Below are positions 14,105-51,172 of a stretch of 64,000 bases of DNA, piece by piece (positions within the stretch are counted from its first letter, which is position 1; each line of letters begins with the position of its first letter). The notes beneath the pieces are model-generated. The model had not been told where the DNA came from, did not search any database, and worked only from the letters and a program-made list of their open reading frames with translations. The stretch spans positions 11,222,001 to 11,286,000 of the forward strand of contig JBHGNT010000020.1 in assembly GCA_043228905.1 (NCBI GenBank), written 5' to 3'. The DNA comes from Azolla caroliniana (taxonomy: Eukaryota; Plantae; Polypodiophyta). The translations under genes and the position numbers were made by a program.

Positions 14105-14143
<39 letters not shown>

Positions 14144-14441: not shown

Positions 14442-14485
<44 letters not shown>

Positions 14486-14570
14486 TTCCCCATTCCATTT
14501 TCTTCCTGTTCTTCAAACCTTCTCCTTCTCCTTCTCTTCAGACAGACAGACAGACAGACAGACAGAAAGA
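13805..14570. repeat. Compound microsatellite field, (CT)n/(CA)n/(TA)n/(TACA)n/(CAGA)n, in the NAC promoter/5' leader
   Basis: Direct reading. The overlapping HTHT/LSLS/CVCV ORFs are artefacts of these repeats. Confidence 0.9.
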
Positions 14571-20514: not shown

Positions 20515-20879
20515 TGTTATACCCTTTAGCATAACATGAGGTCAGATACTCGCTCCTTTGGTCTCCGAATCAAGGTATTGTGGTCGGGGGATGCGAAACT
20601 CTGACGGGTTATACACTGTAGTGCACGATACACCCAGCCGTAACAAGGTAAGTTCACACAAAACTATACCTGATCGGATTGTAATATGTTCTTAACACAA
20701 GACCTAAGCCGACTACAACCGACTGGTTAATTACAACACATAGTTAAACAGAGTCGCTTAGCACACCGACACAATGTATAAGCAAACATATATTCTATTT
20801 AATGACTGACTCAATACAACCGATGAAACTTTGTACAAGGCTCCATGTCCATTTTTATAGGGAGCATGGATGGTTACGT

Positions 20880-21389
20880 TGTCGTGAAGATTTTCGTCCA
20901 TAGGTGGAAACCGGGGTGGGAAGGCCAAGTCGGTGGTGTGCTACATGTGCACATGTAAACTAGGATATGGTGTATAGGAAGAGAGGGGAAATTTTATCCC
21001 ACATTGTAAGGTCCCTCCCTCCTTGGGCTATAAAAGGAAGGGAGGGGTCACTTATGAGGGGTTGCCTATTTTGAGTGTGCGAGGTATACCACATAGGTCG
21101 AGCGTTAGGGTTCGGTTAGGGTTTTCTTCTTGGGTTTTCCTTTAGGGTTTTCTTATAGTCGTTTGGTGCGGCCATGGCGGCCACCATTGTAAAGTGTTTA
21201 TGTTTTCTTAATAGAACTTCTTGTTGAGTATCTTGACTCCATCTTCTTCATCTTCTTCTATCACAATGATATTCGTTCTCTTCTCCTCTTGAGCTATGAC
21301 CTAATCTTCCATTCGTTGTCTTAACCTTTCTCCTCTTCTCCCTAGTCCAAGACCCCCGTGGTCCCGCCCCTTCCACACGCACGTCAAGA
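20880..21389 (+). mobile_element. Solo LTR (D) of the Trp-primed Gypsy lineage, inserted in the X LTR
   Basis: Starts TGTCGTGAAGA, contains ttatcccacattgt...ccctccttgggctataaaagg and ends with gtggtcccgcc...ccacacgc. It is absent from the right X LTR and flanked by ACGT. The last few bases appear deleted. Confidence 0.8.
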
Positions 21390-24300
21390 ACGTCAAGAAC
21401 GTAAACCGCTACTACTTCCTCTAATTATTATGCATGCGTTACATTTGCTCCTCTCGTCTCAACTTCCTGTCCAACCCCACCCGTCTTGGTTTCGACCCGC
21501 ACTTGTCCCTTCGGCCCTTTCACACCTTGGACGTCCTGATCGACCAACACATGGCATGCTTGTGGGATAGTGCCTTGCACAGTCGAACCCACAAAAAATT
21601 TCCGGCTACATGTCATAAAAAATGTGCCGAATGTTCGGCTCCTATTGAGCCGTTTTGTCGTTGTCGATGGTGGTGGTGTGATTGGTACCAGGGTGTTTGA
21701 TTGTCTTCGGCTGGTTGTTCTTATGTGGTCGATGTTGAAGGTATTTCTACAGTTGGCCCTTCTTTCCCCCCTTCTTGGTGTTGTCTTACTCGGCTATCCC
21801 TGATGTGGTTCCTCTTCCAAGATAGGTTGGGGGTTTGGCTCTAGTTGGGCCGATTCCTCGAGATGTTCTTCCTCCTTCGGCTGCTAAGCGGTTATGACTT
21901 GCTTTGTTTGCCTAGCTGGTCCCAATTGATATTGGGCACATTCTTCCTTGGCCTTTTCTTGTTCGGCTTGCTTCGTTTCTTGAGGTTGTTCGGTTGTAGG
22001 GGGTTCTATGGGTACTTGGTCAACCAAATCCTGTGATTGCTCGCTTGATTTTTCATTGAGCAACTTGATATGCACTTCCTTCCTTCCCTCCTGGTCTCCT
22101 TCGCCCGAATTCGTTCTTTTTCGTACGCTTCCAATTCCAAAGAGAATTGGAGCTAGTCATCCTTAAATTCCTCTAGCAATTTGTGTATTTTCGTGGAGTG
22201 GAGTTGGGCCAAGGAGTAGTAATGGTGGTGACGCTCTCTTCATTGAGCTTGTAAAACCCCTCACCTTCTTTTCGCCGGTGTCGTGAAGATTCCCGGCCTT
22301 AGCGAGAAAACCGGGAATAATGGGAACATCGGCGGGGTGCAACGTGGGCACCCATCCTTGTGTATACATGCAAATAATAGGGGGCTCCATAACATGAGTT
22401 AATTCGGGACAGGGGATCCCATGTATAATGGGATTTATCCCACATTGTTACGCATCCCTCTCCTTGTTCTATAAAAGGAAGGGAGCATCCCTTGTAAAAG
22501 GGTTCCTCATTTTTGAGGTTCCATAGGTCCCCTTTAGCGGGTTCCATTTTTGGGTTTCTTCATAATAGAGTTTGTTTCCATTTTTGTTCATCAAAGGTTT
22601 TTTCTTGCACACTAAGCTTCGTGTTGTGGGGACAGAGTTGAGTTCCCTCTCTCATGTTTTGTTCGGTCTTTGTTCTCTGTCAGGGTTGTTGTTGTCTCTA
22701 CGTTGTTGTTGTTCGTGACGAGCCCGAGCGTTCGAAGGCATTGGTCCTCAGCTCTCTCTCTCCCTCGTGCAAGATCCCCACTCCCGTAGGCGAGCCTGAG
22801 TGCTCCCCGACTGGTGGCTTGGCGATAGAAGACTGTTGTTCCGGAAGAGGCATGCCCTGCACGAGACTTTAGTCACGTTGGCGAGCCTATGAGCTCCTGA
22901 CTGGTTTTGGGATGTAGGCACCCTCTTTGTCTCTATGGTGAAACCGGCTTAGTCGGCGTTGCAACGTGCTATGTACATACACATATCTATGTCTATATAT
23001 ATAAAAGGGTGTGTTTCGGGAGTTAGCTTAGGGGTCTCCGGTGCCTAAGTGCGGATGTCTGTGCTGGTTTGGCGTGCTGGTTGTAATTAGTGTGTGTATA
23101 TGTGTGTGTGCGTGTGCGGGGGCGCGGTTAACCGGGCCGTGGCATGTGCTTCTTTTGAGGCCCTTGTACATACGGGCAGGAGGGCCGCATGAGTACGCAC
23201 GCGTGCTCTCTTCCTTCGAGAGTCCGGGTCGCTTCTGGAACATATCCGGAACCGTCCGGGTTGGTCTTCCCCAAACACCATCTGGAATCGATCCGGCCAG
23301 CAACGCGGTAGGTTCCAGAGGATTTGGCCTTCCGGAAACTCCTCCCCTCCTAGTCCATGACCTCGGTGGTCCCGCCCGAATCCGACATGCAAGCGCGGGA
23401 TTCCGCCGCATCTTTGGTGAACCCGATGTGAAGGGCGGCAAGGGAGGATGGAGTTGGAAGACGAAGACTTTAAGAAGAAGAGGCAAGAAGCGGCGCATCG
23501 AGATGGGCGAGGTTGAAGAGGTCGACCGTTTCAACGGGGGCGAAGTCCCACGAGTTCGACCGAAGACTCGATCGTCCGGCATAAAGAGTAGGAGCTTCGG
23601 ACAACTCACAAAGCGTGGCCACCCAGTCATGAAATGGAGGTGGCGCGCGACGACATGACATCACAGCAGGAAGGGGGTGCGCGGACAAGGCGGATGTGGT
23701 CGAGGCGGAGGCCAATTGAGGTACTACGGTACCAGGCACGAAAGAGGGTGCGGGACGAGCCACCTTCTTTTACATGGGGAGAACGATCGACCAAGGCGAA
23801 GGTCGGAATTCGGGAAGAAGATGATTGAGGTACGAAATGAGTCCGGCGGGATCGGCATTGGAGCCGAAATTCTGGACATTGGAGAATCAAGCCCAGGTGG
23901 GGCTTGATCGATCATAGGGCGGATGCTTTCCACCGACACCACTAAAAGGGGCAGTGGCCTTGGACGAGTCATCGGGAGTCGTTTAGGAATCGGTATCCCC
24001 ACATCTCATCCGGCGACTCTGAGAGTTGGCCCAAGAGCCGGCATGAGACCTAGAGAGATGGAAGATGGAGGCGGGAGCACAACAAGGAGGTTGACAACGA
24101 GTTCGAGAGAAGAACACGAAAGCGGAGGAACGAAGACCGGTCCTATGGGTCACCTCATACTGGGCTAGAGACTTCGGCGGTCGGCATCGGATCCGACGTA
24201 AGACCAAGATACTGACGGTGGTGGCAGGAGAATGGGATCCGATAATGCGGAGAGAGATTGGATGAACCCGGACAAGAACCAAGTGGAGCGGACTTCTGGA

Positions 24301-26138
24301 TAACCGATCCGGAAGGGAGGAGGAAGCAGGCCTACGGAGAGGCTGGGAACAGGATACTCGGTACCACAGCAGAGGGTGTGGAGCGAGCCACGCTCTCGAC
24401 TTGTGGAGAAGGACAACCCGGGGAATGGTCGGGAAAGATTGAGACCCGCAAAGGATCCTTCACACCGGGCTAGAGACTTCGGCAGTAGGCAATAGACCCG
24501 ATGGAAGCGCAAGAGACTGATGGTGGCGGCAAGGAGACAAGGGCGAAGGCTACGAAAGGGGCAGTCCCATGGAGACCCTCACACCGATCTGAAGATTCTG
24601 GCGGTCGACAACGAGAGCCGGTGTGAGACCTAGAGGGATGGACGGTGGTGGCAAGAGACGTGATCAGACGACGAGAAGCGGGAACGAGCGGACAAGAGGT
24701 ATGAGGCCGGCTACGCGGCCACAAACTGGATACAGACCCAATCAGTAGGGTTAGGAAGGACGAAAACTGGACACGCTTGGTGCATGAGTCGGTGGCCTAA
24801 CGGATCGGAGGCTCGAGAAGGATCCTCCACACCGGATCTAGAGACTCCAGCAGTCGACAGCGGCAGCCGGTGTGAGACCAAGAGACTGACGGTGGCGGTG
24901 AGGGAGGCAGTAGTAGCAGAGGCACCAAGCAACCAAGGCGTCGCGAGGGCTACGGAGGCCAGGCAGGCCGATACGGGCGAGGGTGATCCTTCGTGGGTGG
25001 CAACACGGGAAGCTACCAAGGACACCCAAGCGGAGTATGGTGTGCTGAGCCAGAAAACGCACACCCGGAAGCAGATCGGAAGACGTGTGTGTGGCCATCG
25101 AGGGTTGAAGCAAAGCACGGTACGGGATGGTGTTCGGCACAAGCGTTGCCGAGCAAGGAAGGTGGAAGACGGCACAAGGTGGTGCCGGGTTGGAAACCGG
25201 GCGCGGGATAGGTTGCACGGGTCGGTAACCGGAAACGGTATCAGTCACCGAAGGAGGGTCCTTCACACCCGCTTCGGAGATCTTGGCGGCTCAATCAGAG
25301 TGGCAATGACTCGCGTGGCAAGCCAAGCCCGAGATAGCAAGCTGGTGGAGGCGAGGGGACGATAGCGAGCAGAAGGCACAAAACCGGTTGTAGCGGCGCT
25401 GAACGAAAAGGGGCCGAGCGGGCCAACACGGGTGTTCCTCGAACATGGAGGGCACTGATATGCGGGTGAAGCGACAACGCACTATCTGATCGGGTAGGGG
25501 CCAACGAAGCGTGCACGAAGAAAGACTGGAGTTCGGCGCGGGTGGTGTCGAGCGAAGGAGGACGATGGACTGAGCCTCTTGCGGGGCGTAGTCAAGAGTT
25601 ACACGGCACACAGAGGTGCATGGACGAGAATACGGGCGCGAAGATGGATTGCTCGGGTTGGTAGCCTCAAAGAACATTGACGACCCAAGAAGGATACTTC
25701 ACACTAGTTCCGGAGACCCCGACAATTCGACCAACGTGGCAATGTGAGACTGAGGGAGATGGACTATGGTGGCAAGGGGACAAGGGCAATAGCGAACAAC
25801 GGCACCGACTGAGTAAACAAAGCATCGTGAAGATCGGCGGAGGCCAAGCGGGCCACTACGGGGTGTTCCTCGGACGCGGAGGTCACCGCTATTCGGGGAA
25901 GCGAGGAGCGTGTGTATGGTCGCTCAAGGGCCACGGGAAGACCACGTGTATGAGCGAAGATCGCGGCAAACGACGTGTCGATAGGTCGATCGAGCCTACG
26001 GAGAGGCGAGCGCGAGGATGGAACCGGAGCCGACGGTTCGGACCGGCGGAGGCCAACACGGTAGCCGGGATGCGGGTTACAGAAAGCCGGTTGCTCACTA
26101 CTGCCAGAATCTCTCACCATTCTTCGGATTTGGCACGT

Positions 26139-29100
26139 TGTCGTGGAGAAAACTATCCCTAGGCAGAAACCGAGTATAACGTGCGTAAACCGGCCCTTAC
26201 ATGTGGGCACAAGTTTTGTTGTATAGTACGTAGGTAGGTACAAGTCACCTGAAGCGAAATCCTAGGTAGTACGCATTCGGTAGGGAGGAAATTGAGGCGT
26301 ATCCCTGTCCTTTCGGACAGGGAATAAACATGATGTAACAAGTGGTAACGGCCTCCCTCCTTGGGTTATAAAAGAGAGGGAGAAGTGAGGATAAAATATA
26401 TCGCGTTTGTGGAGGATGAAGTGCTACCGGACTAGAACTAATCGCTTCCCCTCTCCTCTGTCGTCTCCATAATCGTTTTGTGCAGGTTTCAGGAGGCTGA
26501 CTCTGCTCCGCGGGACACCCGAGTGCTCCCGGCAGAGCCTCCATCTCGCGTTCTATCTGTGTGTGTGTGTGTGCGCGCAGGCGTCGGAGCCCATCACTCG
26601 CCGGCTTGCTAGTTGTAACACCTTGATATATATATATACATAAACATTCGTTCTGTCTCCATCTCGTGTTCAGTAGCTAGTTGCCATTCCTGTGATTTTG
26701 TGGGTCTGTGCGCGTGTGAATTACATCGTTAGTTTCCTTCCCTTCCTCTCATTCAGTTATTTCTCGGTCCGAGGCCCCGGTGGTCCCGCCTCGTTCTCCA
26801 CACACACGGGTAACAACGCGACATATTTGGTGAATCCGACGTGAACAGGTGGCAGAGGAATAGAAAGATGAGAGGGTCGGATCTTGCAGATGCCATGGCT
26901 TCGGCTGTGGATCGGATAGTGAGTGCACACGAAGGCACAAGCGCCCTCGATAGGGCTATTGAAGCGGTTGTTGGCACAATAGGCCGGTTTGGTGGGAAGG
27001 ACGCCACGAGCTATTTGGAGGCCTACTGAGCCGAAATGGTGATGAGGGACATCCCAGAGGACATGCGACTGGCTGGATTCCCTCGGGTGGCGATGCCGAG
27101 CATCCACGCGGAGGTACTTGAGGTACGGGCTGAGAGTCGGACCTGGGAAGAGTTTGAAGGTCAACTCCTTGAAAAGTACGGGCTTGATGACGCACTTCAG
27201 CTCTCGAAGCAAGAGTTCATGGAATGGGTGTAGACCCCCGAAAAGGGGAGAAACGCGTGGGTGCTCCTTCGGGAGTTTGAAGAATGCTTCGCACGACTTT
27301 CGGCGTTGGACCGGACCGTGCTGGATATGAGTCGTGTCCTATTGTTTGTTAAATCGGTGGACGCAAGGGATGGGGAACAAGTGGGTTTCTTGCTAGAGAC
27401 CGATGACGGCCTAACAACCGACTGGGCCGTGGTAAAGAGAGTCTGCGACCGTTTTGATAAATGGCGTGAGTGGGTCGATAAAGGCTTGACGGGGGCGGGT
27501 TCTGTTGTGACAAGGAAGGTCGAGGTACCCCCACCAGCGCGAAGGGAAGAGACCCGAGACTGGCTCGAGACCGGCTCGACTTCAACCGGCATGGTCAAAG
27601 GCTTGTCTGGAGGAGCGGCTCTGGAGGAGCTGACTCAGATGGTGAGGGACCTCCAGATCGCGCAAGCACGGAGGGACGACGGTGAACAAGTCCGTGACCA
27701 AAGGCCCCCGGCTGGGTGCCGGTGCTTGTGGTGCGACACGGTTGGCCACGCCCGAAAGGACTACGGGGACTTTGCCGAAGCGATAAGAGCTAATGTGGTG
27801 TACCTATGGAACGGTCGGGTGCACGCTAGCGAGACCCGAAGGGCCCTGGATCTGAATGTCGGATGAGGTGGTATGAAACGGCTGATGGAAGAAGTAGCAG
27901 CTCGTCATGCGGAGACCGTCCACTACTCGGCGTCGGCTGGAATCCGAGTTGGAATCGATGAAGACCGGAAGACGAAGGAAGCCGGATTTTGGTCGGTGAT
28001 GCTGGAAGGCCTCGCCGGCGTAAGCCTGAAGAAAGAAGAAGCAAAACGCGCGGAAAGATGGGTCCGGGAGGTAACCGGGTGGAGTGACCCGGTCGAGGAG
28101 AAGACGGGCTTCGTGGAAGCCGCGTGCCAGAGCTATGAGGTTCTGGTGGAAGAAAAGAGAGCGGGAAAGACTGGGGAGGGGGGGGGGGCGACCCCCCACA
28201 GTGGTATGAGACCCGGTTTGGGCCGAAGCAGAGTGATGTCGGTGCATCCGGCCCACCAGACAAGGCCAAGAAGGTCGGTTATCGGTTGAGCACAGAGATC
28301 GAAAGGACCACGGACCTACAAAAGGTTCTGGAGGAACGGATCCTCGACAACAAACTGGAGTTGTCGCTGAGGGAAGTGCTTGGTATCGCCAAGAAGGAAT
28401 TCCACGACTCCATCGTAGACTTGGTGAAGCGGAAAAGGCTTTCAACGGAGCCGGAGCCAGAGAAGCCGATGGAGGTGCGAACGACGCACCTAGAAGACAT
28501 GGTCTTGGAGGACGAATTGGCGGAAAGCCACTACTCGAGGCTACATTGGGCTAGGGCCACTACGGAAACCCCTATTCGGATCGGGGACGTCTAGGAGCCG
28601 GTGGTGGCGTTGGTAGACCACGATTCGGAGATCAACTTGATGTCCACGGACTTCTACAAGAAGGGAAAGTGGCCGATCAACACCAAGCACGGGTGGAAGA
28701 TACGGGCAGCAACGCACACCATGGAGGAGCTACACGGAGCCTGCCCAAATGTACGAGTGAAAATCGGCGATGTCGAGATCGACCAAAACTTCTTCGTGCA
28801 GGAGACATCCTCTCATCCGGTGATACTCGGAGAACCGTACAACATGACAGCGCACATGGAGACAAAGGTGCTGGACAATGGTTCGGCATATGCACGAGTC
28901 AAGAGCCAGGATGGGCGTCACTCGGTCCAGTTCCTGATGGTGCGACCAAACCATGAGTGTAACCGCGAGACCCTTGGCGCCGAAAACCGAGGGGATGTTT
29001 AGAGAGGGCTATCAAGGCGTGGGGCCGCGATAGTCCGGACATCCCGGAAAACCCCCACACATGTACTATAGGCGAAAGGACTTGTACCATAGGTAGAAAC

Positions 29101-32100
29101 TTTTGGTTCTCCGATAGCGGTAGTTGTACGATAGCCAGCGTAGCTGGCCACAAAAAGAAGCGGGCGAAGGAGCGACTTCGGGCATGCGGAGTCCTCGGCC
29201 CTGAAGAGGAAATCAACGGAGCCGTGGAGGCGGTCTCTTTCGATGACACCTTGGGGAAGTTACGGGAGGTGTTCGGAGAAGGCCTTAATGAGGATCGGAC
29301 GATTCCGGTATGTTCGGAAAAGATGTACGAAGTCATCGCCGACTTCAGTAGTGGACTCGAGTCGGATCGGACGGCCCGAGTGGATACGAAGTACAAGACT
29401 GTGGACCAGAAGGTGAGGCTAGTCGTGGCAACCTTGCCAGAAGGCAGCGAGTTACGGATAAAGGGGGTCGCGTCGGACCCAAGTTTACGAGATCTGGCTA
29501 GCATAGGACACATGTTCACCGACATAACGCTACGGGAGCTCAAGATAGGTGGGGGTGGTTTTCTACTGCCAGCGGAAGAGGACCGGTTTCGGGGAATGCT
29601 CGGGAGGCACGGGAAGGCTTTCACATTCTCATCAGAGGAGATCGGGTGCGTAGACCCGAAGGTTGTGGAACGAATGGTGATCTTCACAATACCGCATGTG
29701 CCGTGGAGTCTCAAACCGATTCCGGTACCCCGAGCTCACATCCCGAAGCTGATGGAGCTGCTGAAACAGAAGGTGGAGATGGGCATCCTCGAACCGTCGA
29801 GTGCGCCATATTCGAATCGGTGGTTTACCATGCCGAAGAAGAACGGCACATTGCGCTTCATACAGGACCTACAGTCGGTCAACAAGGTGACCATTCGAAA
29901 TGCAGGTATTGGACCGACCATCAATGAGTTCGCGGAGGCTTTCGCAGGAGGGTCAATCTACTCGGTCGAGGACTTGTACTCAGGCTACGATCAGTTCCAG
30001 CTAGCCGTAGAGGGCAGGGATGTCACGACCATGTGGACTCCTCTCCGCCTAGTTCGGATGTGTACCCTACCGCAAGGAGGAACGAACTCGGTGGCACACA
30101 TGGTGAATGCGATGAACAAGGTGTTGAGGGACTGCATCCCAGACATCACCATGCCGTTTCTGGACGACATCCCGATCAAAGGATGTCCGGTGGAGGACAA
30201 GGACGAGTCTGTCGAGCCCGACGGTTGCCGGAGGTTCGTGACGGATCACATCCGCGACTGCGAGAAGGTGCTACAAAGACTCGAGAGCACGTGACTCACC
30301 TTCTCTGGAGAAAAATCAGCATTTGGACGGCCGGAGATCCTGGTAGTCGAACACCTGTGCGGGCCCTATGGCCGGAAACCGTCCCCGGCAAAGGTAGAAG
30401 CCATCTCCGTGATGAAGGACGATTGCAGGTCGGTTATGGATGTTCGCAGATTCTTGGGTGCATGCGCGTTCTACCACATATGGATTCCGCACTACGCACA
30501 TGTCGTGGAACCGCTCTATGGGCTATTGAAGAAAGGGCGTAGGTTCGAGTGGAGGACGGAGCACACGGAATCGATCCGGAGGCTAAAGGAGGCGCTTTCT
30601 GCAGCACCGGCTCTCCGAAAAGCGGTTTACGGCAAGGAAGTCCCCATCTACGTGACGGTGGACACGAGCCCGACCGGGATCGGGTGGGTGATCAGTCAGG
30701 AGGACAAGGACGGCGTACGGTTCCCGATCCGGTTCGGGGCGAAGGTATTGAGGGAGCGGCAGCGAGGATACGCCCAAATTAAGCGCAAGCTGTGGGGTAT
30801 CGTCTCGGCAGTCAAGGTCAAGAAGGACTATCTGATCGGGATGGAAGTGATCATCAAGATGGACTGCCTACCGATTCTAGGTATGGTCTCCGGATGTGTG
30901 ACTCCGGACCTGGCGATGCTCAGGTGGATCACGTACATCAAGTCCCTGAACCCGGAGATATGACACATCTCCGGAAAAGATAATGCCATGGCCAATATGC
31001 TTTTGAGGGCGCGGTTCAATGACGAGGACGGGCATGGTTTCGGATAACGAGGAAGTCGGTGATGATTTCTTCGGGTCAGCCAACGTAACAACAAGAAAGG
31101 GGAGCACTCCGGCGCTTAACGAATTTGACGAGAGCAAGTACGACGGGGAGTGGCTCCAGATCGGCGGGTTCCTAAAGACAATGACACTGGACGCGGCATG
31201 GACGAAGGAAGAGGCCAGCCGGATTCAGAAGAAAGCATACCGATTCTTTCTACGGGACGGGAGCATATGGAAGCACCCGAAGAGAAGAGACGACATCCCG
31301 CTCCGAGTGGCGGCGAGGAAAGAGGAACAGGAAGAATTGTTGACGGCGTACCACGAGAGTCCCTGGGCCGGACACCACGGGACATGGGCCACATTCGAGA
31401 AGCTAAAGGGGAAGTACTGGTGGCCGGGACGTGCATCGGTTCGTGACAACGTGCGAGAGCTGTCAGGTGCACTCCATAGTCCGACACCGGGACGAGCTCC
31501 ACCCGACCTACCCTCCGACCGTCCACTTCAAGTGGATGGTGGATTTGGTGACGATGTCGATGGGGGTAGGACAGATGCGGTATCTGGTGTTGGCTCGGGA
31601 GGACGTGACAAACCAGGTGGAAGGCCGAGCGTTGTAGAGCAAAACGACCGTGGCCGTGTGCCGATTTCTGATCGAAGAAGTGGTATGCCGGTACGGGTGC
31701 GTAGGTAAGATCGTGGCCGACCGCGGGGAATTGGACGTGCAAGAGGCGGAAGAGTTGTTTGACTGGCTAGGAATTAAACTCTCGCTCACGACGGCGTACA
31801 ATCCGGAGGCTAACAGGAAGGTGGAGCGCGGACACGGGCCGATCGTCAAAGTGTTGGTACGGGCGTGTGGAGGCCATGTCGGGAATTGGCCACGGATCTT
31901 ACCCTATGCGTTGTGGGCGGACCGAACTACGCACAATTCGGTAATCGGGTTCATGCCGGCAGAGCTAATGGACGGGCAGAAGCCGATCATGCCAACGGAG
32001 CAGACAATCTCCTCATGGGCCACGGTGGACTGGAATAACGAGATGAGCCGGGAGGAGCTGTTAGCAGCACGAATTCGGCAGCTGGAACGAAGACCGGAGG

Positions 32101-34523: not shown

Positions 34524-35503
34524 ACGTACCAGTGGACGTGCGGTTTGGTCGGGGCGGATGTCGTGAAGATTCCTGGCCTTAGCGAGAAAACCGGGAATAA
34601 TGGGAACATCGGCAGGGTGCATCGTGGGCACCCATCCTTATGTATACATGCAAATAATAGGGGGCGCCATAACATAAGTTAATTCGGGATAGGGGATCCC
34701 ATGTATAGTAGGATTTATCCCACAATGTTACGCATCCCGCTCCTTGTTCTATAAAAGGAAGGGAGCATCCCTTGTAAAAGGGTTCCTCATTTTTGAGGTT
34801 CCATAGGTCCCCTTTAGCGGGTTCCATTTTTGGGTTTCTTCATAATAGAGTTTGTTTCCATTTTTGTTCATCAAAGGTTTTTTCTTGCACACTAAGCTTC
34901 GTGTTGTGGGGACAGAGTTGAGTTCCCTCTCTCATGTTTTGTTCGGTCTTTGTTCCCTGTTAGTGTTGTTGTTGTCTCTACGTTGTTGCTATTCGTGACG
35001 AGCCCGAGCGTTCGAAGGCATCGGTCCTTAGCTCTCTCTCTCCCTCATGCAAGATCCCCACTCTTGTAGGTGAGCCTGAGTGCTCCCTGACTGGCGACTT
35101 GGCGACAGAAGACTGCTGTTCCAGAAGAGGCGTGCCCTGCATGAGACTCTAGTCATGTTGACAAAAGACTGCTGTTCCAGAATGTAGGAACCCTCTTTTT
35201 CTCTGTGGTGAAACCAACTTAGCCGGCGTTGCAACGTGCTATGTACATACACATATCTATGTCTATATATATAAAAGGGTGTGTTTCGGGAGTTAGCTTA
35301 GGGGTCTCCAATGCTTAATTGCAGATGTCTGTGATGGTTTGATGAGCTAGTTGTAATTGGTGTGTGTATATGTGTGTGTGCGTGTGCGCGGGCACGGTTA
35401 ACTGGGCCGTGGCCCGTGCTTCTTTTTAGGCCCTTGTACATACGGGTAGGAGGGTCGCGTGGGTACGCGCACGTGCTCTCTTCCTTAGAGAGTTCGGGTC
35501 GCA

Positions 35504-37100: not shown

Positions 37101-37119
37101 TAGTTAATGAAGAGAGAGT

Positions 37120-38062: not shown

Positions 38063-38445
38063 TGCAAAAGAATACGTGCAAAACCTTAACAGAGACAAGC
38101 GGGTAACAACAAATAAAAGACACGAGACAAGGAAGATAAGGAAGGTTTAATGCAAAGCTTAATCAACACATCGTACGCAAGAGAGACAGAGAGAGCAGAA
38201 CACAGAAAACTCTATATCAAAACAATACTCTAAAACTCTGTACATAGGATGTGCTCAGAGAGTGCTTTTTTACAAGTCCATACGGATTGACAAAAGTACT
38301 GACACATAATTCAATGCTCATCAATGAGCCCCTACACTAACTCCCAAAAATATATTCCTCCACGGAATATCTATCCAACGGCCTCCCGGTTTACGCATCG
38401 TTATGACCTCTCGTTGCGCACCCAGTTTATGCACCCAGTCTACGT

Positions 38446-38642
38446 TGTCGCATTGTTACGCGCGTGCATGGAGAACGAGGCGGGACCACCGGGGTCTTGG
38501 ACCGAGAAATAGCCGAGAAGGAGGAGAACGGAAAGGCAACATGTGCACTTGCACACGAACAGACACGGGAGCACACAGGAATCACAGTCCAACAACACAG
38601 CAAAACGAGACGACTAGAAGTCCGAGTATATGAACACGTATG

Positions 38643-38674
<32 letters not shown>

Positions 38675-41600: not shown

Positions 41601-44600
41601 CCTTGTGGTAGGGTACACATCCACACTAGGCCGAGAGGAGTCCACATCATCGTAATGTCTCTGCTCTCCACGGCTAGTTGGAACTGATCGTACCCAGAGT
41701 ACAGATCACCGACAGAGTAAATTGACCTTCCGGTGAAGGCCTCCGCGAGCTCATCTATGGTCGGTATGATTCCTACGTTACGGATGGTCACCTTGTTGAC
41801 CGGTTGCAGGTCCTAAATGAAGCGCAGCGTGCCGTTCTTCTTCAGTACCGTAAACCACCGATTCGAATACGGGGCACTCGACGGTTCGAGGATGCCCATC
41901 TCCACCTTTTGCTTCAGAAGATCCATCAACTTTGGGATGTGAGCTCTCGGCACCGGAATCGGTTTGAGATTCCACGGTACATGCCGTACCGTGAAGAACA
42001 CCATCGGTTTGACGATCGTCAGGTCCACGCACCCGATCTCCCCCGGCGAGAACGCGAAGGCTTTCCCATGCCTTTCGAGCATTCTCCGAAACCTGTTCTC
42101 CTCCGCCGGTAGTAGAAAGCCACCCCCACCAACCTTGAGCTCCCGTAGCGTTATGTCGGTGAACCAATGCCCTATGTCAGCCAAATTCCGTAAACTTGGG
42201 TCCGACGCGACCCCTTTTATCCACTGCTCGCTGCCCTCCGGCAAGGGTGCTGCGACCGGCCTCACCTTCCGGTCCACAGTCTTGTACTTTGTACCCACGC
42301 GGGCCATCTGATCCGACCCGATCGTTTCCCCGAAGTCCGCGATGACTTCGTACATTCCCATCGATCCTACCGGAACGGTCCGGTCTTCTCTAAGGTCTTC
42401 ACCGATCACCTTTCGCAACTCGCCCAAGGTGTCGTCAAAAGAGACCGCCTCCACGGCGCCGCTAATCTCTTCGTCGGGGGAGAGGACTCCGCATCCCCTG
42501 AGCCGCTCCTCTCGCTTCCTTTCCCGGCCGCTGATGCCGACTATAGTACAACTTCCGTTTTCGGAGAACCAAAACTTCCTACCTACTATACATGTGTGGG
42601 GTTCTTCCAGTACGTCCGGACTATCGCGGCCCCACGCCTTGATAGCCCTCTCTAAAAGTCCCCTCCGCTGTCGCCACCGAGGGTCTTACGATTCCTCTCA
42701 TAGTTCGAACGCACAGTCATGAATTGGACGCAATGCCGACTGTCCTGGCTCTTGACGCGTGCGTATGCCGAACCGTTGTCGAGCACATTCCTCTCCATGC
42801 GTGTTGCCGTAATGTATGGTTCGCCGAGAATCACCGGGTGCGAGGATGTTTCCTGCATGAAGAAATGTTGATCTATCTCGACGTCACCGACCTTTACGCG
42901 TATATTCGGGCACGCACCATGCAGCTCCTCCGTAGCATGCGTCACCGCGCGTATCTTCCACCCATGCTTGGTGTTGATCGGCCATTTACCCCTCTTGTAG
43001 AAATCCATGGACATCAGGTTGATTTCGGATCCATGGTCTACCAAGGCCACCACCGGTTCCTGGACATCTCCGATCTTAACAGGGGTCTCCGTGGTCGCTC
43101 TGGCCCAATGCGGCCTCGAATAGTGGCTCTCCGCCAACTCGTCTTCTAGCGCCATGTCCTCTATGTGCGTCGTTCGCACTTCCACCGGCTTCTCCGGCTC
43201 TGGCTCTGTCGACAGCCTCTTCCTCTTTACCAAGTCTACGATGGAGTCGTGGAACTCCTTCTTGGAGATCCCGAGCACTTCCCTCAGCGACAGCTCCACT
43301 TTGCTATCGAGGATACGTTCCTCCAGGACCTTTCGTAGGTCCGTGTTCCTTTCGATTTCCGTGCTCAACCGGTACCCGGCCTTCTTGGCTTTATCCGGTG
43401 TGCCGGTCACACCTGCCTCATTCTGCCTTTGACTGAATCGGGTCTTGTACCGTTGCGAGGGCTTGGCCCCTCCGGTTTTACCTACTCGCTTGTCTTCCAC
43501 CAGAGCCTTGTAGTTCTGGCATGCGGCTTCAACGAAGCCCGTCTTCTCTTCGACCGGGTCACTCCACCCGGTTACCTCCCGGACCCGTTTTTCCGCGTAG
43601 TCCGCTTCTTCTTTCCTTAGCCTTGCGTCGGCGAGGCCTTCGAGCATCAACGGCCAAAATCCGGATTCGTTCGTCTTCCGGGCCTCACCACCTCCGACCC
43701 GGATCCCAACCGACGCTGAGTAGTGGACAGTCTTCGCGTGGCGAGCCACCGCTTCTTCCATCATTCGTTTCATACTCCCTCGTCCGACATTTAGGTCCAG
43801 GGCCCTTCGGGTCTCGCTAGCGTGTACCCGACCGTTCCATAGGTACACCACGTTGACTCTCATTGTTCGTCGTCGTCCCTCCGTGCCTGTGCAATCTGGA
43901 GGGCCTTTACCATCCTAGTCAGCTCCTCTAGAGCTGCTCCTCCGGACGAGCCTTTGACCATGCCGGTCGAAGTCGATCTGGTCTCGAGCTAGTCTAGGGT
44001 CTCTTCCCTTCACGCTGGCGGGGTTGGCTCGAGTTTCCTTGCTACTACAAAGCCGCCCCTGTTGATCCTTTATCGACCCACTCTCGCCGTTTGTCGAAAC
44101 GGCCACAGACTCTCTTCACCACGGCCCAGACGGCCGTCAGCCCATCATCAGTCTCCAACAGGAGACCCACTTGCTCCCGGTCCCTCACATCCACTGACTT
44201 AACGAACAACCGGACGCGACTTGTGTCTAGTACGGTCCGGTCGAGCGCCGAAAGAGCGCAAAGTGTTCTTCAAACTCCTGGAGGAGCACTGACGCGTTTC
44301 TCCCCTTTTCGGGGGTCTCTACCCATTCCATGAAGTCCCGTTTCGAGAGTCGAAGCGCGTCATCAAGCCTGTATTTTTCGAGGAGCCAACCTTCAAACTC
44401 CTCCCAGGTTCGGCTCTCAGTCCGTACCTCGAGCACCTCTGCATGGATGCCCAGCATCGCCACCCGAGGGAATCCGGTCAGTCGCGTTTCTTCCGGAATG
44501 TCTCTCATTACCATCTCGGCCCGGTAGGCCTCCAACTAGCTCGTGGCATCCTTCCCACTGAACCGGCCTATCGTGTTGTCGACCACCTCAATAGCCCTAT

Positions 44601-45440
44601 CGAGGGCGCCTGCGCCTTCGCGCGCACTCACTATCCGATCCACAGCCGAAGCCATGGCTTCCGCGAGATCCGACCCGCTCATCTTTCTATTCCTTTGCCG
44701 CTTGTTCATGTCGGGTTCACCAAATATGTCACGTTGTTACGCGCGTGCGTGGAGAACGAGGCGGGACCACCGGGGTCTTGGACCGAGAAATAGCCGAGAA
44801 GGAGGAGATCGGAAAGGCAATGTGTGCACTTGCACATGAACAGACACAGGAGCACACAGGAATCACAGTCCAACAACACAGCAAAACGAGACGACTAGAA
44901 GTCCGAGTATACGAACACGTATGTATATAAATATAAATATAAATATATATATTTATATATATATCAAGACGGTTACAACTAACAGGCCGGCAAGGCGAAC
45001 ACAACCGCCTGTTCACTCACACACACAGAAGAGCGGGATGGAGACTCTGCCGGAAGCACACGGGCGTTCCACGGAACAGAGTCAGCCTCCCGAAAACCTG
45101 CACAAAAATGGCTATGGAGAGTGGCAGAGGAGAAGGGCTCGGTCCCAGTCCGACAGCATTTCGTCCTCTCTAACGCGCGATACCTTTTCCATTCCTCTCC
45201 CTCTCGTTTATAGCCCAAGGAGGGAGGTCGTTATCATCCGTTACATCACATTAATTCTCTGTCCTTTCGGACAGAGATACACCTCGATTCTCTCCCTATT
45301 GAATGCGTGCTACCTAGGATTTCACCTCAGCCGACTTGTACCTACTTACTTACCATGCAACGAAAAGTGTGCTCGCGTGTAAGGGTCGGTTTACACGCGC
45401 TAAACTCGGTTTCCGCCTAGGGACGGTTTTCTTCACGACA
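38446..45440 (-). mobile_element. Ty3/Gypsy element A2, near full-length relative of A1: 5' LTR 44727-45440, 3' LTR 38446-39118
   Basis: Same domains as A1 (DHGSEINLM, PFLDDIPIRG, NPEANGKVER, GPY), tRNA-Trp PBS, PPT ggttaggtgggggcaga, TSD ACGT/ACGC. Inserted into the Copia 2 LTR. Confidence 0.95.
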
Positions 45441-48432
45441 ACGCACTGGTTTATGCACCCAATGTTGACCTTGTATCTCAACACTCCCCCTCAAGCTCAA
45501 CTTGAGGTTTCGCCTTCTCTTCCGGATCTTCGTTTCGGCTCTTCCTAGCTTCACGCCTCGCTCGCGCTCCTCGACCCGTTCGATTCCGGGTGCCTCGACC
45601 CTTTTGATCGGTTTGTCTGCTCGTGTAGCCTTTCTCAGCTCCCTTGTTATCGTGGTGTTGGCGCCTGTTCCGTTGCCCTTTCTTCCGCTTGGCCTTTAGT
45701 TGATTCGACGTCACTGAATAAAACATTCGAACCGAATCGGCTGTCTCTGATTCGTTTCCGCCCCTTGCCTGAATTGGCTGTCTCCAATTCGTCTTCTGTC
45801 TTGAGGCCCTTAACCACATCAGACCATGTCGTGGTCTTGGCCTTCGCACTCTTCTTGGCTTCATCTCCCCCTTGTTTGGCTGACTCTTGCTCTTCCCTTC
45901 GGTTGCTGCCCTTGTTTTTGCCTTCAGCTTCTTCAACCGATCTAAAATCGAATTCGTCATCCGACTCAGCTTCGCAGTCACTTCTGCTCATTTCCTGCTC
46001 CCTTTCCTAGTGTTTTCTCCCCCTCAAGTTCAGCATGTTGAGGTGCCGCAAACCAAGCGCACCCGAGAATTGTCGCAACTTGTCGAGACCATAGGGCTTG
46101 GTGAAGATGTCGGCAATCTGCCGATCCGTTAGAACATACGCTAGTTCGACTTCACCGGAGAGGACACGCTCGCGGACAAAATGATAGTGCACCTCAATGT
46201 GCTTGGTCTGGGCGTGGAAGATGGGGTTCTTCGCAAGTTGGATGCTGCTGAGGTTGTCGCAGTAGATCATTGTCAGAGTGGACACCTCCACTTGCAGATC
46301 CTTGAGTAGCTTCTTGAGTCAAATGGCTTCGCATGTCACGATAGTCTCTCCTCGATACTCAGCCTTCGTGCTCAACAGTGCAATTGTCGGTTGCTTCTTG
46401 CTACTCCACATGATCGTGGGACTCCCAAGTGAGAAAGCGAACCCTGATGTGGATCTACGATCGCTGACATTTCTAGCCTAATCGGAATCTGAGTAGCCGA
46501 CGAGCTATTCGGAAATACCGGTCCGATATAGCAGCGTCCTATCCATAGTGTCATAGACATAGCGCAATATCTGTTGCGCGCACTAAAAGTGTTCAGCCGT
46601 GGGCTGTGACATAAATTGATTAACCAGACCGACCAGGTAATTGAGATCTGGCCGAGTGATCATCAAATAAATTAGGTTTCCAACAATCTATCGGAACCGT
46701 GTCGGGTCACACACCTTTCCCAAATCTCGGCGAAGCTTTACATTTCTGTCTAGAGGAGTTGAGATGGACTTATAGTCTGCCATCCCGAACTTGAAGAGCA
46801 TACTTAGCACGTAATATCATTGGCTGATCAATATGCCTTCAGGGGTGTAGATCACTTCTGTCCCTAGGAATTAATGAAGGTCTCCTAGGTCCTTCATGTC
46901 GAATGATGTCGAGAGTTGGGACTTTACGTGACCGATTTCATCTCAGTCAGCGCCGGGGATGACTAAATCATCAACATAAATTAAAATACTAACCGTTCCA
47001 TGTCGACGTTGCCTGACGAACAATGAAGAGTCTGACTGAGCCTTGTAGTGTTTGATAGAGTCGTCAGTGTTGTACTTGACCTTGTACACCCACCTACATC
47101 CAATCGGCTTTACACCCTTCGGGACACCAACCAGGTCCCAGGTTTCATTTTCCGCTAATGCATGCATCTTTTCCTCCAGTTCGGTACACCAATTTGCGTC
47201 CTTCGCCGCTTCTGCGTAGCTCTCCGGGTCACGCACTTCTGTCACTCACGTCATGTATGCATAATGATACGCCATGTACTCGTTGTATCCGAACCGCACC
47301 CCGAGGTTCTTCTGACGGGTAGATCGGTGTATTTGCTCATTAGTCGGATTTGAGGCCCTCTTGGTAGACACAGACTTCATTTCCAAAGGTCCGTCTTCGT
47401 TCTTCTCGGAATTGGATTTGCTTTGATCCGACTTTTCTTTATCACTGCCGTATTCCAACATCGTCTTCTCTTTACGAGTAAACTGTCTCCTCGGCTTCCT
47501 ATGCGAGAATGCACGGTCGAGTCTCCACAACTCACCAACTCTATGTCTTACTGGTCATGCTGACTCAGTCGGTCATTCGGCCCACTTAGCTTGAATGAGA
47601 TCAGACTCTCTTCAAGGGCTCTGATGTCTCCTTCGTCCCTAGGCATTTCAGCCTTGCTAACCTCTTCGGCAGAGATCAGAATGGATTCATCAAGGGTTGG
47701 AGGCAAAGGCAAGTACCACAACGCGGACTCGTCGAACACAACATCATGACTTACGGGAGCTTGTTTTGTTCAGGGATTATAACACTTATAACCCTTCTAT
47801 TCATCTGAGTAGCCAACCAAGATGCACTTCTCTGCTTTGGCGTCCATGTTCCTCTATTTCTCCTTCGGCACACGCACATACGCGATGCTACCGAAAACCC
47901 TCAAGTGTGCCAAGTTCGGGTTCTTCTTGAAGTACAACTCATGTGGCGACACTCCATTGGCATATGCCCGATTCTGGAGGTATTGATCGCTTTGGCCCAA
48001 TAGAACTTTGACAGATGCTTCTCCTCAAGCATTTCCCTTGCCGCCTCGCCTCCTCTATCATCTGATTCTTCCTCTCAGCCACGCCATTCTACTATGGCCT
48101 ATATCTACACGAGAATTCGTGTCAAATTCCCTCCTTTTGTAGATAACTCGAGAACTGGTTGGAGAAGTTCTCCTTCTCGCCATCGGACCTTAGGCACTTG
48201 ATCTTTCGCCTAGTTTCCCTTTCCGCAAGGTTCTTCACCTTTAGGAAACATGCGAAGACTTTGCTCTTTTTCGCCATGAAGCACGCTCAAGTGTGCCAAG
48301 TGAAGTCATCGATGAAGATTACAAAGTAACGACTTACTCTGATGCTCACGTTCTATTCCGGTTCCCATACATCCGAAGGGATCACATCGAGCGGATTTCG
48401 ACTTTGATTACGCTCGTTGGAGAATGGAAGTC

Positions 48433-48818
48433 GGTGTTGCTTCCCAAGTTGGCAGGCTTCGCGGATCCGGCCACTAAATTTTGGCAATCCGAAAACAATG
48501 TTTCGTTTGCATTTCACGAAGCTGCGGGAAGTTAACATGCCCAAACCGCTTGTGCCATAAGTCAATGTCTGACTTGACCTTTTGTCCTTTCGTGAACAAC
48601 GCGGTTCCGACTTCATTGGTGTTGCTTCCCAAGCTGGCAGGCTTCGCGGACTTGGCCGTTCCGGCCACTAAATTTTGGCAATCCGAAAACAATGTTTCGT
48701 TTGCATTTCACAAAGCTGCGGGAAGTTAACATGCCCAAACCGCTTGTGCCATAAGTCAATGTCTGACTTGACCTTTTGTCCTTTCGTGAACAACGCGGTT
48801 CCGACTTCATTGGTGTTG
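48433..48818. repeat. Tandem duplication (about 190 bp) inside Copia 2
   Basis: The ggtgttgcttcccaag...ccgacttcatt unit occurs at 48433 and 48618. Confidence 0.9.
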
Positions 48819-49833
48819 AGGATGAGCATCCTCCCTTCTCGATGCCCTTGCACAAGAACTTTCCCCTCTTCTTCGATGTAGCAACCGAGATGCATGAATC
48901 GAACTTGCATCCCCTGGTCGACGATCTGTCTAACCGACACCATGTTCTTCATTATTGTCAGGACGTGTAGCATGTTCATGAGTTTCTCTTTCTGCCCGAT
49001 GTGGCTGAGGGGAACTTCACCAACATGTTTGATGGTATGCGGAGTGTTGTCTCTAGTTACCACTCCTTGTTTTTCCGGTTTCTCCAAGTACGAGAACCAT
49101 TCCTCGTGACTTGTCATATGATTTGACACTCTGGAGTCAACATACCATCGAATTGGCCTTGTGCATTACGAAGGCTAAGCCCAATCCATTTTTGGCTTGT
49201 TCAGAGCCCTCGGCGTAGTTCGATCGTTGTCGATTTCCTTGTTTGTTCTGCCTGGAGTTGGTGCGATTTTCTCCGAATCAGCGTGTTTCTTCCAACACTC
49301 GCTCTCCTTGTGGCCTTTCTTGCCACAATACCAGCATTCCGTTGTAGGCTTTCCTTGCCGGTTTCCAACACCACCTCGACTGCCCTTGCTTCCAAAGGGT
49401 TCGGAACTACTGTTGGCATTACGACCATGCCTTCCATCTTGCTCCTGTCGGCCGCCTCCATTGCACGTCGATTGGCCTCATCCGTCACGACTACGGGGCC
49501 TATCTTCCTCCGTGTACAACATCTTGTTGTCGGCATGTGTACTCATTGGTGCACCCGTGTTGTTCTCCTCTACTAGGAGCATCGACTATACATCGAAAAA
49601 CGACGGCGTATCCTCCCTCGTACAGACTGCAGTTCGGAAAGCTCCGAACTTCTACACTAACCCTCCGAGGCAAACCTGCACCATTTCGTCCTCCTCGACA
49701 TTTACACCAATGGAGGCGAGAGAGTCACAAATGTCCTTGATCTTGGAGGTGTAATCAGCCACCGACATATCTCGTTGTCGAACATTACTCAACTCTTGCC
49801 TGAGTTGGAGCTTTCTGGTTATGGTGCTCGCGG

Positions 49834-50512
49834 TGTCCTGAAGATTTCCGGCCATAGTGAGAAAACCGGATGGAATGGGCAAAGTCGGCAATGTGCACCA
49901 TGTGAACATGTACATTTGAAAAATGTGTATAAAATAACAAGGGGATATTTATACCACATTGTAACGTCTTTCCCTCCTTGGGCTATAAAAGGAGAGGAAG
50001 GGGCTCTTATGATGGGTTGCCCATTTTGAGTTAGGAGGGTAAATACCGTAGGTCTAAGGTATGGTAGGTTTTCTCTTCTTCTTTCTTCTTTCTTTCTTTA
50101 GGGTTTCATTTAGTTCTTCTTCTTCATCGTCATGTGGGTTGGGTTTCTCTTCTCAGTGTTTGTTGCTTCATCTCTTCTAGGGTTTGCTTAGTTCGTGTGC
50201 CTTGAGGCTCCGGTTCTCAGTTTTGTCTTCTATGCAAAACCCCACTCGCGTAGGCAAGCCCGTGTGCTCCCCCGACTGGTGGCTTGGCGGCTGACAGCTA
50301 TTGTGTTTTCAGCAGGAAGACCGTGTCCATCCGGTTGCATACGGATCTGTCCGTTTTGGTTGCTTCCGGCTCGCATCCGGAACTGTCCCAGTTGGTGCCA
50401 TAGCCAGTGTAACCGACCCTAGAGAAATCGGCCTTTCGGCAACCATCTCTCCCCAGTCCGTGACCCCGATGGTCTCGCACGATCCGACACATGCGCGCGG
50501 ATTTCCACGACA
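49834..50512 (+). mobile_element. Solo LTR (C) of the Trp-primed Gypsy lineage, inserted in the Copia 2 gag
   Basis: TGTCCTGAAGA...CCACGACA, shared TATA module ccctccttgggctataaaagg, 4-bp TSD GCGG/GCGG. Removing it rejoins the gag sequence (..IFSASTITRKLQL..). Confidence 0.9.
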
Positions 50513-51172
50513 GCGGAGAAAATCTTTTTCAAATTTCCCCAAGCATCCTTTAGCATCCTCGCATCCCAAATGTAGCTCAAAACTTGATCGCTCATAGAGG
50601 ATGCGAAGCAGTAGAGAACTCTGCTTGCTGCCTGTTCCCAGGCTGGGAAATCTCTATGTGTCGATTCGGGTGTTCGTCATTAGCTCCATCGACATAACTC
50701 CAGTAGCCATGCCCAAGCAGGTACTGGTGCATCTTGTATGACCAAGGTGTGTAGTTGCTTCTGTCGAGCTTCTCCATCAGAAGCGAGCTAGCCATTCCTC
50801 TGACCATTCTTTCATTATTCTATTCTTCACCGTGATTGGGGTTTGTCTGTTTGTCAGCAACAGAGGATCTCAACCCTCACGCTCTGATACCATGCAAAAG
50901 AATACGTGCGAAAGCTTACCAGACACAACCAGGTAACAACAGATAAAAGACACAAGACAAGGAAGATAAGGAAGGTTTAATGGAAAGCTTAATTAACACA
51001 ACGTACGCGAGAGAGACAAAGAGAGCAGAATACAGAAAACTCTATATCAAAACAATACTCTAAAATTCCACGTGACCGCTAACATTGAATGGTTTTTGGA
51101 CTATTTGGTCGGCGCCAGCAACGCAGTTCAACTAGGCAATGGGCAGGAATGCAAAATCTTCGGAGTAAGCGA

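What the first reader, a model, noticed from the sequence alone, without database searches (positions are those of the whole stretch)
20876..50516. Gypsy lineage with 4-bp target sites that all have a central CpG
Seen: all five insertions of the TGTC-terminated LTR lineage sit at an N-CG-N tetramer. These are ACGT (solo D, 20876), CCGG (B, 22275, left flank only), ACGT/ACGT (A1, 26135/34524), ACGT/ACGC (A2, 38442/45441) and GCGG/GCGG (solo C, 49830/50513). The duplications are 4 bp, whereas Copia 3 and element X show 5 bp. All five landed inside other TEs, and the integrase ends after the GPY motif with no chromodomain. Known: most plant LTR retrotransposons make 5-bp TSDs with weak sequence preference. 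Inference: the integrase prefers CpG, possibly methyl-CpG, which would steer insertions into existing TEs without a chromodomain.
Basis: partly seen in the sequence, partly recalled or inferred. Interest (0 to 1): 0.82.

Follow-up and report, generated by a model that had tools for sequence, protein, structure and literature searches.

The report
Phygy retrotransposon inserting at CpG sites
These jumping genes land on four-base sites with CG in the middle and likely belong to the Phygy lineage of moss-type retrotransposons, for which this habit is already published; whether the enzyme senses DNA methylation remains untested.

Summary
All five window insertions sit on N-CG-N; three have both copies of a 4-bp duplication. 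Outside the window, 45 of 49 distinct LTR-end flanks from metagenome contigs have CG at positions 2-3 (background 3.4%). The other four are TG/CA, at the local CpG decay rate. REXdb's Phygy lineage is published with a 4-bp NCGN duplication, a tRNA-Trp primer site and no extra domain. The element matches these features, and its protease groups with Physcomitrium patens proteins. Small additions: the site is V-CG-B (44 of 45; ACGT commonest). Such sites were 2-13 times denser in three LTR elements than in the window's older DNA, so sequence preference alone would favour nesting. Nothing here shows methyl-CpG reading. The scan noted an NCGN habit before in another, probably fungal, genome.

The parts
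20876..20879 (.). left target copy ACGT of solo LTR D
20880..21389 (+). solo LTR D, 3' end damaged (last ~14 nt missing; exact end uncertain between 21380 and 21389); ACGT follows at 21390-21393
62575..62578 (.). empty paralogous site for D in the other LTR of host element X; reads ATAT (both CpG letters decayed)
22275..22278 (.). left flank CCGG of element B (right copy lost)
22279..23410 (+). 5' LTR of B, followed by a tRNA-Trp-type primer site
23411..26134 (+). internal region of B; no Pfam domain in six frames, likely non-autonomous; continues at 34528-34558
34559..35505 (+). 3' LTR of B, truncated; 92.4% identical to the 5' LTR
26135..26138 (.). left TSD ACGT of A1, in B's 3' untranslated region 31 bp before B's 3' LTR
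26139..26823 (+). A1 5' LTR (685 bp; 94.0% identical to the second LTR)
26828..26845 (+). A1 primer binding site, tRNA-Trp type, after a 4-nt spacer
26870..29002 (+). A1 gag-protease reading frame with DUF4100 (decayed; start approximate)
28963..32460 (+). A1 pol: RT, RNase H, H2C2 finger, integrase core, GPY, short acidic tail; frameshifted and with stops; no aRH, no chromodomain
32531..33229 (+). A1 second LTR
33230..34523 (+). A1 tandem unit: second primer site, 750 bp of gag, 5'-truncated third LTR (33984-34523)
34524..34527 (.). right TSD ACGT of A1
38442..38445 (.). TSD copy ACGT at the 3' end of A2
38446..45440 (-). A2, full-length element (6995 bp): LTRs 44727-45440 and 38446-39118 (96.3%), gag-protease frame ending at 42652, pol about 42685 to 39190
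45441..45444 (.). TSD copy ACGC at the 5' end of A2
49830..49833 (.). left TSD GCGG of solo LTR C, in a Copia gag
49834..50512 (+). solo LTR C (679 bp)
50513..50516 (.). right TSD GCGG of C

Best explanation
These are copies of a non-chromovirus Ty3/gypsy LTR retrotransposon, likely of the Phygy lineage, that sit on 4-bp V-CG-B target duplications, and their integrase likely reads that tetramer directly from the DNA sequence without needing methylation. Shown: 4-bp spacing, central CG at essentially all sites, avoidance of T before and A after the CG, tRNA-Trp primer site, no chromodomain or aRH. Inferred: the integrase cuts with a 4-base stagger around a symmetric CpG and reads the bases, not only flexibility, because the other pyrimidine-purine steps (TA, TG, CA) are not used. 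Inferred: nesting in TEs follows from target density, since methylation-driven decay strips CpG from old DNA while younger elements, above all this family itself, are rich in it. Speculative: the acidic residue three positions after the second catalytic Asp, and the Gln-His loop before GPY, are candidate readers.
For: 45 of 49 distinct right flanks have CG at +2/+3 (3.4% background, binomial 2e-61); 9 of 12 left flanks have CG at -3/-2, which fixes 4 bp; 44 of 45 CG sites are V-CG-B against 212 of 470 background CG tetramers (Fisher 1.5e-13). The four exceptions are TG/CA: 4 of 98 strand-sites, against 8 of 189 decays at three CpG positions in the same LTR ends; TG+CA is 13.8% of flank dinucleotides. 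Read contigs agree: the majority line behind the LTR end begins ACGT in 4 of 4 runs (17-23 contigs each) and ends ACGT before the LTR start in one run of another organism (33 contigs). Phygy's published profile matches. Protease tree: SH-aLRT 99 clade with 14 P. patens, 12 Riccia and 8 Adiantum rows. V-CG-B per kb: 39.5-41.0 in A1/A2, 14.3 in Copia 3, 3.2-6.0 in five blocks of the first 20 kb. Targets lie in flanks with CpG o/e from 0.14 to 1.3, median 0.78. Central-CG preferences also occur in Ginger1 and in Drosophila errantiviruses (CGCG); that flies have little CpG methylation is recalled. E or D follows D-R-G in 96 of 96 aligned near homologs.
Against: No methylome or biochemistry: independence from methylation is inferred, not shown. 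The family is itself likely methylated (22 of 41 and 12 of 25 LTR differences are CpG transitions), so most available CpGs may be methylated anyway. None of 4 contigs with host DNA on both sides of one LTR shows an exact duplication (short-read chimeras are my guess, untested). One left flank is CCTT. The tree is a quick, protease-only tree with no labelled Phygy, Tcn1, TatI, Selgy or Athila rows; none of the 30 P. patens proteins matched the RT-RNase H or integrase queries, so that the P. patens rows are Phygy is inferred. A1 core (7091 bp) and A2 (6995 bp) are shorter than the P. patens Phygy range of 7656-9968. The search pattern favours young copies with intact LTR ends, and nearly all accepted loci come from one series of assemblies.
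Confidence: 0.65

Rival explanations
1. Same lineage, but the integrase prefers methylated CpG, using DNA methylation as a chromodomain-free route into silenced repeats.
For: All five window sites are in TEs. D's empty paralog has both CpG letters decayed, so that site was likely methylated in at least one copy. Several targets sit in strongly CpG-depleted flanks (o/e 0.14-0.3). At least 26 of 49 outside flanks are TE- or repeat-like. Phygy domains are reported enriched in liverwort centromeres. An in vitro study of CpG methylation and retroviral integration exists (title only).
Against: TpG, which carries a methyl group where 5mC does, is used no more than decay predicts; this is weak evidence. 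Target density alone gives a 2-13-fold lean to the LTR elements measured. One insertion lies about 160 bp from an Alba-domain coding stretch, and 23 of 49 flanks showed no TE homology in my limited tests. Pfam found no methyl-binding domain, and the tail after GPY is short and acidic.
Confidence: 0.2
2. The CG preference is shape readout (a bendable central step), with regional targeting supplied by a host tethering factor or nucleosomes.
For: The closest solved integrase by sequence is that of prototype foamy virus (E 3e-8), whose 4-bp target favours a flexible central step (recalled). Nucleosome and palindrome effects are reported for plant LTR elements.
Against: 0 of 49 sites have a central TA, and TG/CA is at the decay level, so flexibility alone does not explain it. 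No host factor is indicated by any search.
Confidence: 0.1
3. The element belongs to another 4-bp lineage (TatI, Selgy or an unnamed sister clade) that shares the habit.
For: TatI also has 4-bp duplications and a tRNA-Trp primer, and Selgy has 4 bp. No labelled reference rows were available. The element's nearest neighbours in the tree are unnamed environmental proteins.
Against: TatI has an aRH domain in 100% of elements and none was found here or listed for 118 longer homologs. Selgy uses tRNA-Ala. NCGN is published only for Phygy. 30 of 120 listed gag-protease hits are P. patens proteins.
Confidence: 0.04
4. Chance: five CpG-centred sites picked after the fact in CpG-rich repeats.
For: Only three of five window sites have both duplications, and host regions carry 3.4-8.4% CG.
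Against: Post hoc chance 6e-5 in the window; 45 of 49 outside it, or 46 of 56 with the seven dropped loci added back.
Confidence: 0.01

Closest known systems
Ty3/gypsy non-chromovirus Phygy (Neumann et al. 2019, PMC6317226)
   Same: 4-bp NCGN duplication, tRNA-Trp primer site, no chromodomain or aRH, polyprotein filling the internal region; protease 52-65% identical to P. patens proteins.
   Different: About 7.0-7.1 kb against 7.7-10.0 kb. The host is likely another non-seed plant (inferred from divergence; not identified). The site is narrower here (V-CG-B); whether that also holds in P. patens could not be read because Additional file 1 was too large.
Ginger1 DNA transposons (Bao et al. 2010, PMC2836005)
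   Same: Gypsy-type integrase with H2C2 finger and GPY motif, TGT termini, 4-bp duplications CCGG (75%) or CCGT/ACGG (24%), all of which fit V-CG-B.
   Different: DNA transposons of animals with inverted repeats, no RT, extra C-terminal domains; CCGG dominates there, ACGT here. No Ginger1 sequence was compared.
TatI and Selgy (REXdb)
   Same: 4-bp duplications in non-seed plants; TatI also uses tRNA-Trp.
   Different: TatI carries aRH; Selgy uses tRNA-Ala and averages 5 kb; no NCGN preference is listed for either.
Drosophila errantiviruses, gypsy/ZAM/Idefix subgroups (PMC5408687)
   Same: Sequence-specific palindromic targets TATA, CGCG or ATAT.
   Different: Animal lineage with env, different motifs; not compared by sequence.
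Tcn1 / RLG1 chromoviruses of P. patens
   Same: Gypsy elements of non-seed plants that accumulate in TE islands.
   Different: Chromodomain, 5-bp duplication, mostly self-priming; none of these applies here.

Membership tests
Phygy | Ty3/gypsy order GAG-PROT-RT-RH-INT between LTRs | tested here: met
Phygy | Clusters with P. patens Phygy elements in an RT-RH-INT tree (the primary definition) | tested here: inconclusive
   The REXdb FASTA could not be read. Protease-only quick tree: SH-aLRT 99 clade with two groups of P. patens proteins, Riccia and Adiantum, no labelled lineages. None of 30 P. patens proteins matched the RT-RNase H or integrase queries.
Phygy | 4-bp target site duplication | tested here: met
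   3 two-sided sites in the window; CG at +2/+3 on the right and -3/-2 on the left; 0 of 4 two-sided metagenome contigs exact
Phygy | NCGN target motif | tested here: met
   5 of 5 in the window; 45 of 49 right and 9 of 12 left flanks outside
Phygy | Primer site for tRNA-Trp | tested here: met
   After TGG, 13 of 14 letters match the start of a published human tRNA-Trp antisense probe; no plant tRNA gene was at hand
Phygy | No chromodomain and no aRH | tested here: met
   Six sense frames of A1 and A2 at E up to 0.1; none listed for 118 longer homologs; tail after GPY 51-97 aa in 87 of 90 homologs
Phygy | Short element, polyprotein spanning nearly the whole internal part, no extra ORF | tested here: met
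   A2 coding runs from about 44700 to 39190 within an internal part 39119-44726. Length 6995 bp is below the P. patens range, a feature the authors call relatively insignificant for classification.
TatI | aRH domain in the polyprotein | tested here: not met
Selgy | tRNA-Ala primer site | tested here: not met
   primer site is tRNA-Trp type
Chromovirus (Tcn1, Galadriel) | Chromodomain at the integrase C-terminus | tested here: not met
Methyl-CpG-directed integrase (hypothetical) | Preference for methylated over unmethylated CpG targets | not testable with these tools
   no methylome, no host genome

The most novel reading that the evidence does not exclude
An old Gypsy clade spread over mosses, liverworts and ferns, with more distant kin in Chara and fungi, has an integrase that reads methylated V-CG-B, so that host DNA methylation itself steers insertion into silenced repeats without a chromodomain.
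Probability: 0.15. Interest if true: 0.75.

Novelty: new member of a known kind. Interest (0 to 1): 0.27.

Why it matters
As shown, it extends a published but little-studied trait (one sentence and one table cell in the REXdb paper) to another host, narrows the motif to V-CG-B, and offers a simple route to nesting: methylation-driven CpG decay leaves younger elements as the richest targets. A near-absolute 4-bp specificity with candidate residues is a tractable model for target reading by retroviral-type integrases. If methyl-CpG reading were true, it would be a new way for a retrotransposon to find heterochromatin.

Tried and rejected
No host genome is held, so the genome-wide test used metagenome contigs and read contigs. 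Viral contigs held no relative. Seven of 73 pattern matches (L013, L030, L031, L042, L053, L057, L070) were dropped by eye as chance matches with no LTR similarity upstream; one of them has CG at 2-3. Fourteen were 5' LTRs followed by the primer site, and three were duplicate flanks. Beyond the four target letters no strong base preference was seen at +5 to +10. The left-junction row was shown for 1 of 4 runs only (251 rows hidden). ARAGORN found no tRNA in the window or loci, and two pattern scans for a tRNA-Trp gene found nothing. The careful tree did not finish; the quick tree is reported, with six proteins left out for short or no alignment and 14 of 30 P. patens proteins used. The protein atlas gave only generic integrase clusters. 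GingerRoot (6-bp sites), the truffle genome paper, the Cryptococcus paper and the DANTE paper held nothing on CpG targeting in the passages seen. No structure was predicted, as it could not decide methylation dependence. A search of earlier findings by the integrase sequence found nothing.
Full report
Observation. Self-comparison and reading show five insertions of one LTR lineage: solo D (20880 to about 21389), B (22279 to about 35505, 3' LTR truncated, no Pfam domain inside), A1 (26139-34523, a three-LTR tandem under one ACGT/ACGT duplication, inserted 31 bp before B's 3' LTR), A2 (38446-45440, minus strand, ACGT/ACGC) and solo C (49834-50512, GCGG/GCGG). B has only a left flank. D has lost its last bases, but the other LTR of its host gives an empty site with a single, doubly decayed copy of the target (62575-62578). 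B, C and D share only short blocks with A1/A2 at the LTR ends and the TATA region, so they are different subfamilies. Element X and Copia 3 have 5-bp duplications with one mismatch each, and Copia 3's left copy also contains a CG. Chance in the window is 2.8e-7 from host CG frequencies, or 6e-5 post hoc. All five sites lie within one nest inside element X (20515-62734), so their being in TEs says little.

Test outside the window. No host genome is held. A scan of metagenome contigs for the LTR 3' end gave 73 loci. I dropped 7 by eye as chance matches, 14 were 5' LTRs followed by the primer site, and 3 were duplicates, leaving 49 distinct host flanks. CG stands at +2/+3 in 45 of 49, against 474 of 13,797 dinucleotides further out (binomial 2e-61, assuming independence); with the 7 dropped loci added back it is 46 of 56. 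The other four are ATGT twice, CCAG and CCAT. That is 4 of 98 strand-sites, and three CpG positions left free in the same LTR ends show 8 of 189 decays, while TG+CA makes up 13.8% of flank dinucleotides. So CG was probably present at nearly all sites when they were hit. Of 22 LTR starts in these loci, 9 follow the polypurine tract, 1 is at a contig edge and 12 have host flanks: 9 with CG at -3/-2, 2 of decay type and 1 CCTT (one tetramer is shared with the right-flank set). CG at +2/+3 on the right and -3/-2 on the left means a 4-bp duplication. Against this, none of the 4 contigs with host DNA on both sides of one LTR has an exact duplication; collapsed short-read assembly is my untested explanation. 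The site is narrower than NCGN: 44 of 45 lack T at position 1 and A at position 4, against 212 of 470 background CG tetramers (Fisher 1.5e-13), and ACGT is 20 of 45 against 6.8%. Contigs of public runs agree: loose ends behind the LTR end (17, 19, 23 and 21 contigs in 4 of 4 runs, at most 3 samples, two organisms) give a majority line starting ACGT with only 0.41-0.43 agreement overall, and 33 contigs of a further organism give one ending ACGT before the LTR start (that row was shown for 1 of 4 runs). Limits: the pattern favours young A-type copies, and nearly all accepted loci come from one series of assemblies.

What the element is. A1 and A2 encode gag (DUF4100) and protease in one frame, and RT, RNase H, H2C2 finger, integrase core and GPY in a second. 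Pfam finds no chromodomain and no archaeal-type RNase H in their six sense frames, none is listed for 118 longer homologs, and the tail after GPY is 51-97 residues in 87 of 90 homologs and acidic in the 12 printed. The primer site matches tRNA-Trp (13 of 14 letters against a published human probe). Named relatives are from Physcomitrium patens (30 of 120 listed gag-protease hits), Riccia and Adiantum, and more distantly Chara braunii and the fungus Smittium (20 of 150 hits looked up, 6 with an organism name). A quick protease tree of 56 rows puts A2 in a 51-row clade (SH-aLRT 99) with 14 P. patens, 12 Riccia, 8 Adiantum and 16 environmental rows. It has no labelled lineage references. The host is likely a non-seed plant (inference).

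What is known. Neumann et al. 2019 (PMC6317226; passages, two parts of the main section and supplement 5 read) write that, apart from Phygy elements, which prefer NCGN, duplications were highly variable. Their table gives Phygy 186 elements, 4 bp in 100% (NCGN), tRNA-Trp in 81%, no extra domain, 7656-9968 bp. TatI shares 4 bp and Trp but has aRH; Selgy uses tRNA-Ala. Jedlicka et al. 2019 (PMC6911290, passages) report GC-rich centres in 4-bp duplications and Phygy nested in Tcn1. Phygy is also named in a liverwort, enriched at centromeres (PMC12885004, passages). Ginger1 transposons make CCGG or CCGT/ACGG duplications (PMC2836005, passages), and Drosophila errantiviruses use TATA, CGCG or ATAT (PMC5408687, passages). 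RLG1 of P. patens has a chromodomain (PMC7466625, passages). Eight searches turned up no paper that tests methylation dependence for Phygy or states V-CG-B; most hits were seen only as listings, and subscription journals are largely missing. Additional files 1 and 3 of the REXdb paper (element list with duplications; domain sequences) were too large to read. They bear both on whether V-CG-B is new and on membership.

Mechanism. Shown: 4-bp spacing, central CG, V-CG-B, no chromodomain. Inferred: the integrase reads bases, because no site has a central TA and TG/CA is at the decay level; a bendable step alone would admit them (the foamy-virus precedent is recalled; its integrase is the closest solved sequence). 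Inferred: nesting follows from density. V-CG-B occurs 39.5-41.0 times per kb in A1 and A2, 14.3 in Copia 3 and 3.2-6.0 in five blocks of the first 20 kb, where CpG o/e is 0.41-0.51. Self-insertion is seen in the window (A1 in B) and outside it (L015, L017, L022, L032). Of 49 outside flanks, 22 match window TEs or repeats within 1.5 kb (four of these match repeats I did not classify), and 4 more carry retroelement domains (22 of the remaining 27 had frames long enough to test). One lies next to an Alba-domain stretch. This is a lower bound, with no genome-wide baseline. Methylation cannot be judged from these data: targets lie in flanks with CpG o/e from 0.14 to 1.3, and the elements are themselves likely methylated (CpG transitions are 22 of 41 and 12 of 25 LTR differences). 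Speculative: E or D follows D-R-G at the second catalytic Asp in 96 of 96 aligned near homologs and E in 20 of 31 distant ones, and a Gln-His pair is conserved before GPY (94 and 91 of 97). From recall, these positions correspond to target-contacting residues of retroviral integrases.

Verdict. A correct observation of a published lineage trait in what is likely a new host, with a modest refinement of the motif and a simpler account of nesting. The methyl-CpG idea is open and testable, but unsupported so far. It gave me the Ginger1 lead; I did not test its data, and its remark that the habit was not found in print for retrotransposons is answered by the REXdb paper.

Noticed in passing
window 28990-29010 (+) and 42640-42665 (-); L006:356-535: The gag-protease frame ends at a conserved stop (six homologs end in DF) and pol overlaps in the -1 frame. 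L006 has GGATTTT just before the stop, a candidate -1 frameshift site (motif recalled); A1 and A2 each differ from it by one base.
   Followed up: partly
window 33230-34523: A1 is a tandem LTR structure: after the second LTR come a second primer site, 750 bp of gag and a 5'-truncated third LTR, joined at a short GAG(G/A)C-type microhomology near 33985. Tandems are described as common (PMC11899658, passages).
   Followed up: partly
L015:250-290; L048:2280-2330: L015 has two elements head to tail separated by one ACGT, as if the second inserted into the first one's duplication. L048 has an insertion at GCGT within the last bases of another copy's LTR.
   Followed up: no
window 22279-35505: Element B has the family's primer site and 3' tract, a long LTR (1132 bp) and 2.7 kb of internal DNA with no Pfam match: likely a non-autonomous derivative.
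   Followed up: partly
window 32515-32530: The tract before the 3' LTR is G-rich but interrupted by T and C. It is the most deeply covered part of the stretch in all four runs, so it is likely shared by many subfamilies.
   Followed up: no
window 15409-15915: Part of a NAC (NAM domain) gene, preceded by microsatellites at about 14000-14500 and a 30-bp tandem repeat at 14918-15217.
   Followed up: no
window 4851-8633: Decayed LINE element (endonuclease, RT, zf-RVT).
   Followed up: no
window 48433-48818, 57118-57349, 57517-57834, 61090-61205: Head-to-tail duplications of 60-190 bp inside decayed Copia and Gypsy sequence.
   Followed up: no
window 51168-51172 and 56283-56287: Copia 3's 5-bp duplication AGCGA/AGCAA contains a CG that decayed on one side; a single case, compatible with chance.
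   Followed up: no
L002:718-1422: An insertion about 160 bp from an Alba-domain coding stretch; the same flank occurs in L064.
   Followed up: no
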